Sequence record: MZ501103
DNA: 64,000 nt
Reading direction: 5' to 3' (one strand)
Origin: Escherichia phage SelmaRatti
Shown: positions 37,565 to 62,700 of the stretch, piece after piece
Layout of the letters: the number at the start of each line of letters is the position of its first letter
How positions within the stretch are numbered: the first letter of the stretch is position 1
The notes under the pieces: generated by a model
What the model was told of the DNA's origin: nothing
The model's database searches: none
The model's input: only the letters and a program-made list of their open reading frames with translations
Position numbers and translations under genes: made by a program

Positions 37565-38512
37565 ATGTTTAATACTAAAAATATGAAAGAACTAACTTCT
37601 GAGCAGAAAGTAATTCGTACTATTAAACGTTGGGGGATTGGTGCTGTAGTTGGTTTAGCAGGTTTAATCCTAGCTTTTAATTCATATACTATTGTTTCTG
37701 ATGGTACGGTTAAAACTCAAACATTCCTGGGTAAAGTAGACCCTAATCCAGTATTACCTGGTTTCCATATTGTAAACCCGTTTGCATCTTTCGATACTTT
37801 CAGTACAAAAGATATTGCTGTAAAATTAGATAAACTTCAGGTTCCTAGTCAGGATAAGTTTAAATCCACTGTTGACCTGACTGTTATGTTACAATTTGAT
37901 GGTTCTAAGGCACCGATCAACCGTATTAATGCAGGTACTCAGGATCAGGCTCTAGATAAGTACGTAACTGAAAAATTACTGTCCACTATTCGTGAGTTCG
38001 GTAAGTCTGTACCTAAAGCACAAGATTTATTTGATGCTAAAATTCAGGCTCAATTGCAAACTGCAATTCAACAGGAAGTTGAAGAGTATGCACGCCCATA
38101 TGGTTACACAGTTAAGCAGGTATTCCTTCAGGATATTACTTTGCCACCGGTAATCATGGAACAGGTACAGAATACCAAAGTTCGTGAAGAACAGGTTAAT
38201 GCTGCTAAAGCTGAATTAGCTCGTGTTGAACAGGAAGCACAGCAAAAAGTTAAACAAGCAGAAGCAGATCGTGAAGCTCGCAACAACCAAGCTATCGCTA
38301 ATGAACGTGACGCAGATGCTAAACTGTACGCAGCTAAGAAAGAAGCTGAAGCTAACGCCGCACTGCAACGTACCATTACTCCTGAGATGATTCGTTGGAA
38401 ACAACTGGAAGTTGAGATGATTCGTGCTCAGAAATATCAAGGTGGTGTGCCGCAGACTGTGGTTGGCACTGGTTACGATGGCCAGATGATTATGGATATG
38501 CGTAATAAGTAA
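37565..38512 (+). CDS. SPFH/band-7 membrane protein
   Basis: N-terminal TM helix, band-7-like core, C-terminal coiled coil. Confidence 0.55.
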   Translation: MFNTKNMKELTSEQKVIRTIKRWGIGAVVGLAGLILAFNSYTIVSDGTVKTQTFLGKVDPNPVLPGFHIVNPFASFDTFSTKDIAVKLDKLQVPSQDKFKSTVDLTVMLQFDGSKAPINRINAGTQDQALDKYVTEKLLSTIREFGKSVPKAQDLFDAKIQAQLQTAIQQEVEEYARPYGYTVKQVFLQDITLPPVIMEQVQNTKVREEQVNAAKAELARVEQEAQQKVKQAEADREARNNQAIANERDADAKLYAAKKEAEANAALQRTITPEMIRWKQLEVEMIRAQKYQGGVPQTVVGTGYDGQMIMDMRNK

Positions 38513-38588
38513 TATCCACGCGTAATATTCGAAGTAAGCCCTGTGTTTCCTGGAGAGCGCAGGCAATTAAATGAATTTATATAAAATT

Positions 38589-38621
38589 TTGCTTGTTTTT
38601 GCGCGTAAAATTTTATATAAT
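38589..38621 (+). promoter_or_regulatory. sigma70-type early promoter
   Basis: TTGCTT then TATATAAT; exact -10 register ambiguous. Confidence 0.45.
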
Positions 38622-38651
38622 ATTTACTCAAATTTGGAAGAATACGTTAAC

Positions 38652-39023
38652 ATGAATACTAATAAGAAAGGAAATATAGGGCTAGGAAGTGCGATTGCTC
38701 ACTTTACTAGTAAAGGTTTGATTGTTTCACTACCTTTAAATGACAGTCAAGATTACGATCTAATCGTAGATATGGGGGGTACTCTAAATAAAGTTCAGGT
38801 GAAATATACCTCCCAAAAGGCACCCTCTGGTAGTTATATTCTAGCTATGAGAAGTACAAGTGGCACTTCTAGAGTAGCGTATAAGACTCTTAATGAAACT
38901 AATATTGATTTAGTGTTTGTGTATACTGATCAGTATCAGTTGTTAATTCCAATTAAGAAATTAACTAATAAAAATCAAACTACCCTTACTAAAGAATTAG
39001 TACAAGAATTCCGAGTTATATAA
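38652..39023 (+). CDS. hypothetical protein, possible PD-(D/E)xK nuclease fold
   Basis: ATG 38652 chosen because the longer ORF starts inside the promoter; DYDLIVD...KVQVK motif. Confidence 0.4.
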   Translation: MNTNKKGNIGLGSAIAHFTSKGLIVSLPLNDSQDYDLIVDMGGTLNKVQVKYTSQKAPSGSYILAMRSTSGTSRVAYKTLNETNIDLVFVYTDQYQLLIPIKKLTNKNQTTLTKELVQEFRVI

Positions 39024-39025
39024 AA

Positions 39026-39115
39026 GGAAGAATACGTTAAAAGGTAAACGAGCTGATTGCTAATCAGTAGCTCTGAAATATAGCCTTGTGGGTTCGATTC
39101 CCACTTCTTCCGCCA
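39026..39115 (+). tRNA. tRNA-Ser (anticodon GCT), type II
   Basis: Acceptor ggaagaa/ttcttcc, anticodon loop ttgctaa, long variable arm, T-arm gtggg-ttcgatt-cccac, encoded CCA. Confidence 0.7.
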
Positions 39116-39121
39116 AACATA

Positions 39122-39196
39122 GGGTCGGTAGCTTAAAGTTAAAGCGGTGGCCTCATAAGCTAACGAGTAGGAGTTAGATTCTCCTCCGACCCACCA
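39122..39196 (+). tRNA. tRNA with anticodon CAT (Met or Ile2)
   Basis: Acceptor gggtcgg/ccgaccc perfect, anticodon loop ctcataa, T-arm aggag-ttagatt-ctcct, encoded CCA. Confidence 0.6.
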
Positions 39197-39211
39197 AATT
39201 AAGGAAATAAG

Positions 39212-39379
39212 ATGTATAGACATCCACCTCCGCCAACACGTCGTTCTAGAGAAGTTATCCTCATGGAATTGACTAAAAACTTCAAGGCAACTCTTGAAGA
39301 TAGAGATTTAGGCACAGATGAAGATGTTGATTTCATCTGTAAACTATTAAAAATGAAACTGGAGAAACAACATGGCTAA
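39212..39379 (+). CDS. small hypothetical protein (55 aa)
   Basis: RBS aagga; stop overlaps next ORF start. Confidence 0.3.
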   Translation: MYRHPPPPTRRSREVILMELTKNFKATLEDRDLGTDEDVDFICKLLKMKLEKQHG

Positions 39380-39578
39380 TCCTGAAATTACCGCACAACG
39401 TTTCATGCTTAAAGGCATGATTGCTGAGGCAGGTATGACTCAAGAAGTTGTAGATTTTCAAAAGCAATTCCTCAATATTCTCACTCAAGCCAAAGAGCTA
39501 GGAGAGAAAGAACATGGAGCAGCAATTATGGCTATATCTCTTATTAGTCTAGACTTGGCTGAAGAATCAGGAGTTTAA
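39372..39578 (+). CDS. hypothetical protein (68 aa)
   Basis: ORF. Confidence 0.4.
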   Translation: MANPEITAQRFMLKGMIAEAGMTQEVVDFQKQFLNILTQAKELGEKEHGAAIMAISLISLDLAEESGV

Positions 39579-39608: not shown

Positions 39609-39638
39609 TTGCCTTTTGCTTTAAATTTCTGATATAAT
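39609..39638 (+). promoter_or_regulatory. sigma70-type early promoter
   Basis: TTGCCT-18-TATAAT. Confidence 0.5.
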
Positions 39639-39649
39639 AGTTATATAAA

Positions 39650-39943
39650 TTGATGAGAGGAATCAGAATGTCAAAACGTGTTACAGCAACTGGTATTGAA
39701 AGTGTAATCTGCAAATCCTGGGAAGACAGGGAAGGTGAGATTGAATGGCTTTATTTCTATGATGTAGAACTTCTACCGGAAGTTAAAGCTAAATGTATTG
39801 AAGCTGGTATGGCTCCTGATGCTACTGCTGATGTTGAGATTATCATGAATAAGCTAGAGGGTCTGGTAATCACTGTTAGTGATGAGGGCGAAGAAGTCTT
39901 CGAACTTCCGTTCTCCTTAACTGTCACTCCTAAGTTCGACTAA
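39650..39943 (+). CDS. hypothetical protein (97 aa)
   Basis: Promoter 39609-39638, RBS gagagg. Confidence 0.45.
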   Translation: MMRGIRMSKRVTATGIESVICKSWEDREGEIEWLYFYDVELLPEVKAKCIEAGMAPDATADVEIIMNKLEGLVITVSDEGEEVFELPFSLTVTPKFD

Positions 39944-39979: not shown

Positions 39980-40008
39980 TTGCTCAGTGCCATAAAACTT
40001 GATATAAT
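39980..40008 (+). promoter_or_regulatory. sigma70-type early promoter upstream of tRNA-Tyr
   Basis: TTGCTC-17-TATAAT; -35 lies inside an 11-bp inverted repeat. Confidence 0.5.
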
Positions 40009-40071
40009 AGTTATCTAATTTGGAAACATATTTAAAAGTGTTTAAACTAGTATTTGAATACTTTTAAATGT

Positions 40072-61893: not shown

Positions 61894-62495
61894 GTCGGAT
61901 TTGCACCTTGTGTTTCTAGAAATTTATGGTCGGATTTGCACAATCGCCTAAGTTTTTAGGAACATATAATCTCCTGAAAATGGCAGCATTATTTCGGGCC
62001 GAAGGCCCATGATTGCCTGAGTTTTTAGGGCCACAGAAATTTTCACTTGTCAAGCTATTTTGCCCCATTTTGCTAATAAAATTTTACTTTTTCTGCACCT
62101 ATCTCAAATTAACCCAAATTATCTCAACTCTTCCCCAAAATCCCCGCAAATCGGGTGCCCCGCACCAAACATGCGCCCCTCTCACAGTTCCCTCAAATTT
62201 CTCTCGCTATCTCACCTTCACTACAAACCTATACAATCACACACCATCTCATCGAAGTCACAAAAATTTCATCGGATTCGCACAGCTCAACACATGTCGG
62301 ATTTGCACATACTCTAGCTAATTCCACAGGATTCGAACGCAGTTCGTGATTGCTGGAGTTTTTAGGGAGACAGATTCGTCACTCTCACGAATTTATAAAT
62401 TTTTTTCGGGTCGGATTTGCACACTACCAAAAATTGTCGGATTTGCACATACATGCCCGCACGTAACACCCGTGGAGCATTGTCGGATTTGCACA
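61894..62495. repeat. seven direct copies of a 13-bp iteron-like repeat GTCGGATTTGCACA
   Basis: Copies at 61894, 61929, 62272 (variant), 62296, 62410, 62436, 62483, all same orientation; interspersed with repeated TTTCTAG(G/A) and GTTTTTAGGG motifs. Confidence 0.7.
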
Positions 62496-62520
62496 AAAGC
62501 GCAGGGCAATTGCCCTGCTC

Positions 62521-62700
62521 GCCTGAATGCGAATGATAATGAGAATCAATCTCGTTTAAAAAGCTGAATGCGAATGATAATGATTCGCATTTAAGAAAGG
62601 GAATGAGAACTATTCAAGAAGTGAAATGATTCTCATTTAAAAAGTGGAGTGATTATCGGTTAGCTAGTGAAATGCGAATGATAATGATTCGCATTTAAAA
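62521..62700. repeat. three copies of GAATGCGAATGATAATGA, two extended to perfect palindromes
   Basis: Copies at 62525, 62566, 62671; AATGCGAATGATAATGATTCGCATT is an inverted repeat; related palindrome aatgagaa...ttctcatt at 62611-62637. Confidence 0.7.

What the first reader, a model, noticed from the sequence alone, without database searches (positions are those of the whole stretch)
38637..39040. 15-nt repeat of the tRNA-Ser 5' end flanking the PD-(D/E)xK-like gene
ggaagaatacgttaa occurs at 38637-38651, forming the RBS region of the 38652 gene, and again at 39026-39040 as the 5' acceptor and D-stem of tRNA-Ser. This looks like a target-site duplication or recombination scar, suggesting the putative nuclease gene inserted next to the tRNA.
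Basis: seen in the sequence. Interest (0 to 1): 0.4.

Follow-up and report, generated by a model that had tools for sequence, protein, structure and literature searches.

The report
Homing-nuclease insertion scar at phage tRNA-Ser
The 15-base repeat is real: it is the leftover 5' end of a tRNA-Ser gene, left behind when a selfish homing-endonuclease gene, carrying its own variant copy of that tRNA's front half, was recombined into a T5-like phage. This is an ordinary kind of event with an unusually clear footprint.

Summary
The window comes from the T5-like Escherichia phage SelmaRatti (Bas34). Chance is excluded.

The gene between the copies (38652-39023, 123 aa) belongs to the I-Ssp6803I family of PD-(D/E)xK homing endonucleases (Pfam PF11645). 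The top fold match is 2OST. It is freestanding, with no intron.

The 72 nt upstream of copy 1 are 97% identical to the stretch that runs straight into tRNA-Ser +1 in the nuclease-less Enterobacter phage KKP_3711. Copy 1 therefore sits where a tRNA once began.

The closest homologue (79% aa, contig L007) shows the same layout. Its 21-nt fragment is identical to the tRNA-Ser 5' end of the nuclease-less Pectobacterium phage My1.

In both cases the full tRNA after the nuclease gene differs from the nuclease-less allele only in its 5' half. Several of these changes are stem-compensating.

All relatives at 49% identity or more sit within -24 to +3 nt of a tRNA-Ser(GCT) start.

Best reading: a recombination scar of homing into tRNA-Ser, not a transposon-type target-site duplication. 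Cleavage site and activity are inferred only. It is a new member of a known kind, of moderate interest.

The parts
38636..38650 (+). Upstream copy of the 15-mer: an orphan 5' fragment (positions 1-15) of a tRNA-Ser(GCT) gene. One base (c, 38651) separates it from the nuclease start codon.
   Evidence: Exact match to 39026-39040. It lies exactly where tRNA-Ser +1 lies relative to the conserved upstream tract in KKP_3711.
38652..39023 (+). Freestanding PD-(D/E)xK homing endonuclease gene of the I-Ssp6803I / PF11645 family, 123 aa (bas34_0081 of phage SelmaRatti).
   Evidence: Pfam PF11645 E 3.6e-20, 72.8 bits against a cut-off of 26.1. phmmer to PDB 2OST E 1.3e-7. AF2 model pLDDT 88.5; top fold hit 2OST with TM 0.78. 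All family-invariant residues are present. GC is 32.5% against 38.7% for the window.
39026..39115 (+). Complete tRNA-Ser(GCT). Positions 1-15 (39026-39040) are the downstream copy of the repeat.
   Evidence: ARAGORN. Rfam RF00005 59.2 bits, about the same as the T5-type allele at 60.5 bits.
39035..39073 (+). Variant 5' half of the tRNA that is linked to the nuclease gene. It holds all 14 differences from the T5-type allele, including fully compensated D-stem (GCA/TGC to CGT/ACG) and anticodon-stem (A-T to T-A) changes. The right-hand recombination junction lies just after it.
   Evidence: Alignment and difference counts. No phage record has this 5' half; the best match is 82.5%.
38564..38635 (+). 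AT-rich promoter-like tract and tRNA leader of KKP_3711 type. In KKP_3711 it directly precedes tRNA-Ser.
   Evidence: 70/72 identical to KKP_3711 (97.4% over 38558-38635 as computed) and about 30% to T5-type phages. The consensus promoter scan did not flag it, because the TTGCTT to TATAAT spacing is 21 nt.
38538..38563 (+). Hairpin after the SPFH gene that contains the left recombination junction (about 38550-38563). T5-type sequence lies to its left and KKP_3711-type sequence to its right.
   Evidence: Segment identities: 38440-38512 is 93% to PK7 and 38% to KKP_3711; beyond 38564 the relationship reverses.
37565..38512 (+). SPFH/Band-7 gene. This is the conserved T5-type left flank (context).
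   Evidence: Pfam PF01145 E 1.8e-17. It is syntenic in all T5-like relatives.
39122..39196 (+). tRNA-Met(CAT). This is the conserved T5-type right flank (context).
   Evidence: ARAGORN and Rfam. The order tRNA-Ser then tRNA-Met is shared with relatives.

Best explanation
The repeat is the junction scar of a homing-endonuclease gene (HEG) insertion at the 5' end of a phage tRNA-Ser(GCT) gene. Shown: the gene between the repeats is an intact, freestanding I-Ssp6803I-family PD-(D/E)xK endonuclease gene. Shown: its relatives always sit immediately 5' of tRNA-Ser(GCT). Shown: the upstream 15-mer lies exactly where a tRNA-Ser begins in a nuclease-less phage. Shown: the tRNA downstream of the gene is complete but has a variant 5' half found in no nuclease-less phage. 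Shown: the roughly 510-bp block 38564-39073 is foreign to the T5-type backbone. Inferred mechanism: the endonuclease cuts nuclease-less tRNA-Ser(GCT) genes in or near the D arm. The break is repaired by copying from a nuclease-bearing genome. The right end finds homology in the tRNA itself, so the HEG and the front half of the donor's tRNA (probably cleavage-resistant) are copied in. Where the left flank of the donor is not homologous, the left end is joined at or near the break, and this leaves the first 15-21 nt of the recipient's tRNA stranded in front of the HEG. The whole block (upstream tract, fragment, HEG, variant tRNA half) later moved by flanking recombination into the Tequintavirus backbone of SelmaRatti, where it replaced the Toprim-domain gene that T5-like phages carry in this slot. 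The HEG is probably co-transcribed with the tRNAs, and RNase P processing at 39026 would separate the two.
For: Family and fold. No intron RNA. Presence/absence polymorphism: no phage record has a homologue above 46% identity, while about 440 T5-like records match the flanks. Empty site for the left side: KKP_3711. Second instance with a near-identical empty site: the 21-nt fragment in L007 is 21/21 identical to My1 tRNA-Ser positions 1-21, within a 919-nt flank at 97.8%. The full tRNA in L007 differs from My1 at 10 columns, all in columns 9-46, with none in 47-92. The same pattern holds here: 14 differences from the T5-type allele, all in columns 10-50, none after, and stems stay paired. Third pair: L013 against Klebsiella phage phi1_175008. 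The flanks are 96-99.5% identical, but the whole tRNA-Ser(GCT) next to the HEG is a foreign allele. Position specificity: 6 distinct contexts (8 loci) at 49% identity or more all have the HEG stop within -24 to +3 nt of tRNA-Ser(GCT) +1, and 63 of 65 IMG/VR homologue loci lie in tRNA arrays. The founding family member I-Ssp6803I is itself encoded in a tRNA gene (PMC1995217). T4 SegB is a freestanding HEG in a tRNA cluster that cuts tRNA genes and drives co-conversion (PMC2330249).
Against: No cleavage data exist; the target, the cut position and the resistance of the linked tRNA allele are all inferred. In the window the fragment is identical to the downstream tRNA (15/15) but only 12/15 identical to the KKP_3711 tRNA, although the adjacent 72 nt are 97% KKP_3711-like. 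The recipient of the original event is therefore not in any database searched, or the fragment was later homogenised. No empty site with exactly this 15-mer was found in INPHARED, IMG/VR or JGI metagenomes. Only two genomes show the fragment, and they may descend from one ancestral event rather than two. Part of the variant region (anticodon stem and base of the variable arm) also occurs in the nuclease-less phages phA11 and phC11, so not all of it need be HEG-linked. The gene occurs in 1 of about 440 T5-like genomes, which argues against efficient ongoing homing.
Confidence: 0.7

Rival explanations
1. The fragment began as a scar but is now a maintained functional part of the cassette. It could serve as the short left homology arm that lets a broken tRNA-Ser end prime copying of the HEG, which would make the cassette self-sufficient for homing. 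Alternatively it could act as a 5'-UTR or translation signal.
For: In each genome the fragment's acceptor-strand bases match that genome's own tRNA (GGAAGAA here, GGAAGGG in L007), although the two tRNAs differ at 4 of these 15 positions. In the window identity drops sharply from 97% to 80% against KKP_3711 exactly at tRNA +1, as expected if the joint falls inside the fragment. The UTR is unstructured.
Against: 15 nt is short for homologous pairing. Relatives at 49-57% identity do without any fragment. The fragment in L007 is simply recipient-type, which a passive scar also predicts. The Shine-Dalgarno-like bases are poorly spaced.
Confidence: 0.15
2. A tandem duplication of the promoter plus tRNA-Ser unit came first. 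The HEG then landed between the copies, and the upstream tRNA copy was deleted down to 15 nt.
For: Phage tRNA clusters do undergo nuclease-driven segmental amplification (PMC13096335). The end product would look the same.
Against: This needs at least three steps. No further remains of an upstream tRNA copy exist beyond nt 15. In L007 the upstream fragment and the downstream tRNA have different origins (recipient-type against foreign), which a local tandem duplication does not predict.
Confidence: 0.07
3. A transposon- or integrase-type insertion in which a staggered cut or att-site recombination duplicated 15 bp of target.
For: A direct repeat flanks a 375-bp insert that carries a nuclease gene. 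Integrative elements commonly duplicate part of a tRNA gene.
Against: There are no terminal inverted repeats at the insert ends. There is no transposase or integrase; the only product is a 123-aa I-Ssp6803I-like endonuclease. The duplication length differs between instances (15 and 21 nt), and in L007 the copies are not identical. Integrases duplicate the tRNA 3' end, not the 5' end (established knowledge).
Confidence: 0.03
4. A chance repeat in AT-rich sequence.
For: The region is AT-rich. Another exact 15-mer pair (promoter motifs at 39630 and 40000) exists nearby.
Against: The expectation is 0.057 per window for any such pair and about 1e-5 for one starting at a tRNA +1. Copy 1 also falls at the exact tRNA +1 position defined by homology with KKP_3711, and the architecture recurs in L007.
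Confidence: 0.01

Closest known systems
I-Ssp6803I (Synechocystis PCC 6803; PDB 2OST), founding PD-(D/E)xK homing endonuclease, Pfam PF11645
   Same: Same Pfam family and fold, with the YDL...VQVK motif aligned. Both are small single-domain proteins, and both are tied to a tRNA gene: I-Ssp6803I is encoded in the tRNA-fMet gene (PMC1995217).
   Different: [quoted passage not shown] Here no intron is detected. The gene is freestanding and lies in front of a complete tRNA-Ser, and tRNA integrity is preserved by a rebuilt 5' end rather than by splicing. Sequence identity is only about 26%.
T4 SegB (GIY-YIG) and intronless homing of freestanding HEGs in phage tRNA clusters
   Same: A freestanding HEG inside a phage tRNA gene cluster. 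It is absent from close relatives. The target lies in tRNA genes. Flanking tRNA markers are co-converted. The HEG is co-transcribed with the tRNAs (PMC2330249, PMC13096335). The mosaic flanks here fit this pattern.
   Different: The nuclease fold is different. SegB recognises the generic T-arm motif and shows no isotype preference (PMC13096335), whereas this clade is always at the 5' end of tRNA-Ser(GCT). No orphan tRNA fragment is described for SegB in the papers read.
[quoted passage not shown]
   Same: Same phage group and same genomic niche. They are mentioned in PMC2330249; further details rest on my own recollection.
   Different: They belong to a different nuclease family. None occupies this slot in the relatives examined, which carry a 172-aa Toprim-domain gene instead.
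Integrase-mediated insertion into tRNA genes (attL/attR partial tRNA duplication)
   Same: An inserted element is flanked by a short direct repeat that is part of a tRNA gene, and the tRNA stays intact.
   Different: There is no integrase and the phage is virulent. The 5' end of the tRNA is repeated rather than the 3' end. The repeat length is variable and the copies can differ.

Membership tests
PF11645 / I-Ssp6803I-like PD-(D/E)xK homing endonucleases | Sequence match to the family profile above the curated threshold | tested here: met
   72.8 bits against a cut-off of 26.1, E 3.6e-20, covering residues 1-105. 102 homologues all carry PF11645.
PF11645 / I-Ssp6803I-like PD-(D/E)xK homing endonucleases | Restriction-endonuclease-like fold matching the solved I-Ssp6803I structure | tested here: met
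   AF2 model pLDDT 88.5 and pTM 0.83. Foldseek top four hits are the 2OST chains, TM 0.70-0.79, E about 1e-7. The next hits are Hjc resolvases and SPARDA nuclease domains.
PF11645 / I-Ssp6803I-like PD-(D/E)xK homing endonucleases | Conserved acidic and lysine active-site motif | tested here: met
   D36 is invariant across 28 homologues, Q49 and V50 are nearly invariant, and the following K is conserved in most rows (R in three). This motif aligns to YDL...VQVK of 2OST. Assigning catalytic roles to these residues rests on my recollection of the family literature.
PF11645 / I-Ssp6803I-like PD-(D/E)xK homing endonucleases | Site-specific double-strand cleavage of the HEG-less allele | not testable with these tools
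   Needs an enzyme assay.
Intron-encoded homing endonuclease (as I-Ssp6803I) | [quoted passage not shown] | tested here: not met
   An Rfam E-value scan of 38300-39400 finds only the two tRNAs. The downstream tRNA is complete and uninterrupted.
Freestanding HEG with intronless homing (SegB-type behaviour) | Presence/absence polymorphism at a fixed locus among close relatives | tested here: met
   Absent from about 440 T5-like records that share the flanks. L007 against My1 and L013 against phi1_175008 are further presence/absence pairs.
Freestanding HEG with intronless homing (SegB-type behaviour) | Co-conversion: flanking sequence next to the HEG is replaced together with it, and the junctions fall in homologous DNA | tested here: met
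   The left junction is in the hairpin at about 38550-38563 and the right junction is in the tRNA after column 50. The same one-sided distribution of differences is seen in L007 against My1.
Freestanding HEG with intronless homing (SegB-type behaviour) | Biased inheritance in mixed infection that depends on an intact HEG | not testable with these tools
   Needs phage crosses.
Transposable element with target-site duplication | Terminal inverted repeats, a transposase, and a fixed-length identical duplication | tested here: not met
   No inverted repeats at the insert ends. The only ORF is the 123-aa endonuclease. The duplications are 15 and 21 nt, and the L007 copies differ at 3 positions.

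The most novel reading that the evidence does not exclude
The fragment may not be an accident but the signature of a distinct strategy. In this reading, a PD-(D/E)xK homing endonuclease cuts tRNA-Ser(GCT) genes in the D loop and sits at its own cut site like an intron-encoded enzyme. Instead of relying on splicing, it carries a duplicated and mutated (immune) 5' 'exon' that rebuilds the tRNA downstream. The stranded fragment then marks the cleavage point and serves as the left homology arm. Such a cassette would overwrite resident tRNA-Ser alleles across phage genera and subfamilies (Tequintavirus, a KKP_3711-like lineage, Myunavirus). Sister clades of the family would do the same at tRNA-Tyr and other isotypes.
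Probability: 0.2. Interest if true: 0.6.

Novelty: new member of a known kind. Interest (0 to 1): 0.35.

Why it matters
The finding explains one mosaic joint in a BASEL-collection phage at base-pair resolution. It also gives two natural before/after pairs, SelmaRatti against KKP_3711 and T5-type phages, and L007 against My1. These predict where an uncharacterised endonuclease cuts (the tRNA-Ser D-arm region) and which substitutions confer immunity. The I-Ssp6803I family has a single characterised member. Phage homologues that sit, clade by clade, at the 5' end of particular tRNA isotypes would be a ready source of new specificities. They would also be a mechanism that shuffles phage tRNA alleles, which are themselves targets of anti-phage tRNA nucleases. 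The individual event is ordinary homing biology.

Tried and rejected
- Group I intron around the gene: the Rfam scan found only tRNAs.
- Transposon features: no terminal inverted repeats.
- A longer ORF from ATG 38571 (150 aa): rejected. Homologues all start at MN(T/S)K, and the extra 27 codons cover sequence that is non-coding in KKP_3711.
- RBS occlusion or a structured 5' UTR: none, z = 0.29.
- The same 5'-tRNA fragment in 70 other homologue loci: only the window and L007 have it. The other 'repeats' are generic T-arm matches between neighbouring tRNAs.
- An exact empty site, or more nuclease-bearing alleles: the exact-protein lookup returned nothing. Pattern scans of IMG/VR and JGI metagenomes found nothing. 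The 5.8-billion-protein search found only the SelmaRatti protein itself and one 79% homologue.
- L014 relatives in the phage collection: none close enough to define an empty site.
- The consensus promoter scan did not confirm a sigma-70 promoter in 38564-38635, so I call the tract promoter-like only.

Full report
**Observation.** The 15-mer GGAAGAATACGTTAA is present exactly twice in the window, at 38636-38650 and 39026-39040, both on the + strand. No third copy appears even with two mismatches. ARAGORN and Rfam place tRNA-Ser(GCT) at 39026-39115, so the second copy is tRNA positions 1-15. The ATG of the intervening gene is at 38652, one base after the first copy. Exact 15-mer pairs within 500 nt are expected 0.057 times per window in Markov simulations. 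A pair that begins exactly at a tRNA +1 is expected about 1e-5 times.

**What the window is.** The protein encoded at 38652-39023 is 100% identical to bas34_0081 of Escherichia phage SelmaRatti, a Tequintavirus of the BASEL collection. The region is the T5-type tRNA cluster, with ten tRNA genes between 37456 and 42611. About 440 T5-like phage records match the flanks at 87-94% identity, but none covers the middle of the query.

**The gene.**
- It matches Pfam PF11645 (PDDEXK_5) at 72.8 bits, E 3.6e-20.
- Its only sequence hit among solved structures is I-Ssp6803I (2OST), E 1.3e-7, with the YDL...VQVK motif aligned.
- An AlphaFold2 model (pLDDT 88.5) has the four 2OST chains as its top fold matches, TM 0.70-0.79.
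- All residues invariant across 28 homologues are present, so the gene looks intact.
- I-Ssp6803I is encoded by a group I intron in a tRNA-fMet gene (PMC1995217). Here an Rfam scan finds only the two tRNAs and no intron, so the gene is freestanding.
- No record among 50,697 phage records has a homologue above 46% identity.
- Its GC content (32.5%) lies in the lowest 3% of equal-sized windows.

**What relatives have in this slot.** T5-type phages (Gostya9, PK7, I14, JLBYU43, Kenya-K18, phA11) carry a 172-aa Toprim-domain gene between the SPFH gene and tRNA-Ser. A canonical TTGCTA-17-TATAAT promoter for the tRNA lies inside the 3' end of that gene. Enterobacter phage KKP_3711 carries neither gene. 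There, a hairpin, an AT-rich promoter-like tract and a leader run straight into tRNA-Ser +1.

**Mosaic structure on the left.**
- Window 38440-38512 is 93% identical to PK7 and 38% to KKP_3711.
- From 38564 to 38635 the relationship reverses: 70 of 72 bases match KKP_3711 and about 30% match T5-type phages.
- The first 15-mer copy begins at exactly the position where the KKP_3711 tRNA-Ser begins. It is therefore the stump of a tRNA-Ser gene, not a chance match.

**Mosaic structure on the right.**
- The complete tRNA-Ser differs from the T5-type allele at 14 alignment columns. All 14 lie in columns 10-50; columns 51-92 have none.
- The changes keep the stems paired: the D stem goes from GCA/TGC to CGT/ACG, and the third anticodon-stem pair goes from A-T to T-A.
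- The tRNA scores as well in Rfam as the T5-type allele (59.2 against 60.5 bits).
- No phage record carries this 5' half; the best match is 82.5%.
- phA11 and phC11 share only the anticodon-stem and variable-arm part, so the D arm is the portion unique to the nuclease-bearing allele.
- The foreign block is thus about 38564-39073.

**A second instance with a clean empty site.** The closest homologue (P0002, 79% identical over 98% of the query) lies on Logan contig L007. That contig has the same order: upstream tract, 5' tRNA fragment, nuclease gene, tRNA-Ser(GCT).
- Pectobacterium phage My1 is 97.8% identical to L007 over the 919 nt that end at the fragment.
- The fragment GGAAGGGTTCACTAATTTGGT is 21/21 identical to My1 tRNA-Ser positions 1-21.
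- In My1 the tRNA simply continues. In L007 the sequence switches to GGCAC-ATG and the nuclease gene.
- The full tRNA after the gene in L007 differs from the My1 tRNA at 10 columns, all in columns 9-46, and is identical from column 47 onward.
- So the upstream fragment is recipient-type, and the rebuilt 5' half is foreign and travels with the gene. A staggered-cut target-site duplication would give two identical recipient-type copies of fixed length. Here the lengths are 15 and 21 nt and the L007 copies differ at three positions.

**A third pair.** This pair is L013 against Klebsiella phage phi1_175008. The flanks are 96-99.5% identical, yet the entire tRNA-Ser(GCT) next to the gene, together with an upstream tRNA-Asp, is a foreign allele. 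Homology resumes 10 nt before the tRNA's 3' end.

**Family context.**
- 63 of 65 IMG/VR loci with homologues of this protein contain tRNA genes within the 2.5-kb flanks fetched, almost always on the same strand.
- Every relative at 49% identity or more (six distinct genomic contexts, eight loci) has its stop codon within -24 to +3 nt of a tRNA-Ser(GCT) start, although the upstream neighbours differ.
- Another clade sits -1 to +4 nt before tRNA-Tyr(GTA).
- Only the window and L007 carry the 5' fragment. In L013 and L014 the gene fills a tRNA-tRNA spacer, and L015 and L008-L010 also lack the fragment.

**Mechanism.** The shown parts are the family and fold, the polymorphism, the junctions and the fixed position at tRNA-Ser. 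The rest is inferred by analogy with intronless homing. T4 SegB is a freestanding GIY-YIG endonuclease in the tRNA cluster. It cuts tRNA genes of phages that lack it and is inherited with co-conversion of neighbouring markers (PMC2330249). It can also drive local duplications (PMC13096335).
- I propose that this enzyme cuts nuclease-less tRNA-Ser(GCT) genes in or near the D arm.
- The right break end invades the donor's tRNA, so the donor's variant 5' half and the gene are copied.
- Where the donor's left flank is not homologous, the left end is joined at the break, stranding the recipient's first 15-21 nt.
- The compensated substitutions in the linked tRNA half would protect the carrier from self-cleavage.
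- The block then entered the SelmaRatti backbone by recombination in the hairpin (left) and in the tRNA (right), displacing the Toprim gene.

**Weak points.**
- The window's fragment matches its own tRNA 15/15 but the KKP_3711 tRNA only 12/15, although the adjacent tract is 97% KKP_3711-like. Either the original recipient is unsampled, or the fragment has been converted or selected to match. This keeps open the idea that it now works as a homology arm.
- No exact empty site or further carriers were found in INPHARED, IMG/VR, JGI metagenomes or the large protein collection.
- The promoter is not confirmed. The TTGCTT to TATAAT spacing is 21 nt and the scan did not flag it.
- The repeat is a poor ribosome-binding site, and the UTR is unstructured.

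**Comparison and novelty.** The element works like a SegB-type freestanding HEG and belongs, by sequence and fold, to the I-Ssp6803I family. It fails the 'intron-encoded' feature of the founding member. I found no paper describing PF11645 genes at the 5' ends of phage tRNA-Ser or tRNA-Tyr genes, or the orphan tRNA fragment. Stand-alone PDDEXK_5 genes in phages are already counted as homing endonucleases (PMC12880540). I rate it a new member of a known kind. The repeat itself is an ordinary but unusually legible recombination scar.

Noticed in passing
L001 2031-2549; L002 1910-2428 and 4239-4760; L006 2014-2532 and 4222-4740: T5-type relatives carry a 172-aa Toprim-domain gene (Pfam Toprim_2 E 3.5e-5; PHROG 849, auto-annotated 'DNA primase') in the slot the nuclease gene occupies here. 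The tRNA-Ser promoter is embedded in its 3' end. A second gene of the same length (519-522 bp) lies next to other tRNAs. It may be another mobile small nuclease of tRNA clusters.
   Followed up: partly
L014-L078 (IMG/VR loci): PF11645 homologues fall into clades with different partner tRNAs. One clade lies -1 to +4 nt upstream of tRNA-Tyr(GTA). Others lie directly before tRNA-Asp, Ile, Trp, Gln or Lys, or directly after tRNA-Tyr. 63 of 65 loci are in tRNA arrays.
   Followed up: partly
L008 4376-4399 (also L009, L010): In the 49%-identity clade the nuclease ORF reads 24 nt into tRNA-Ser(GCT). Its last residues and its stop codon are encoded by the tRNA's acceptor strand and D arm.
   Followed up: no
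L080 901-989 (Salmonella phage phA11; also phC11): A nuclease-less T5-type phage has a hybrid tRNA-Ser: a T5-type D arm, but the window-type anticodon stem (GCTGA/TCAGT) and variable-arm base. It may be a footprint of an earlier conversion tract, or standing variation.
   Followed up: partly
L079 2097-2188 against L007 1938-2029: ARAGORN finds the My1 tRNA-Ser(GCT), but it does not reach the Rfam tRNA gathering score; its anticodon stem has a C-A mismatch. The nuclease-linked allele in L007 scores 50.6 bits, so the incoming cassette brought the better-formed tRNA.
   Followed up: no
window 38577-38590 / 38607-38620: A perfect 14-nt, A/T-only inverted repeat (TTATATAAAATTTT / AAAATTTTATATAA) brackets 16 nt (38591-38606) of the promoter-like tract. 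It is conserved in KKP_3711.
   Followed up: no
window 39630-39644 and 40000-40014: A second exact 15-mer pair (TGATATAATAGTTAT), 370 nt apart, flanks ORF 39650-39943 upstream of tRNA-Tyr. Both copies are extended -10 promoter motifs, each preceded by TACTTGC, so these look like duplicated promoters rather than an insertion scar.
   Followed up: partly
window 61928-62684: Dense families of direct repeats: GTCGGATTTGCACA four times, and three copies of a repeat sharing at least about 28 nt (AATGCGAATGATAATGATTCGCATTTAA). They are iteron-like. Function not examined.
   Followed up: no
L003 (PP892525.1): Escherichia phage vB_EcoS_I14 is filed under Ounavirinae/Felixounavirus in its record, but this locus is plainly T5-like. 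The record's taxonomy is probably wrong.
   Followed up: no
collection 'phages': The SelmaRatti genome itself does not appear in the phage collection searched; the best locus matches are 92-94%. The statement 'no record has the gene' therefore excludes the source phage.
   Followed up: no
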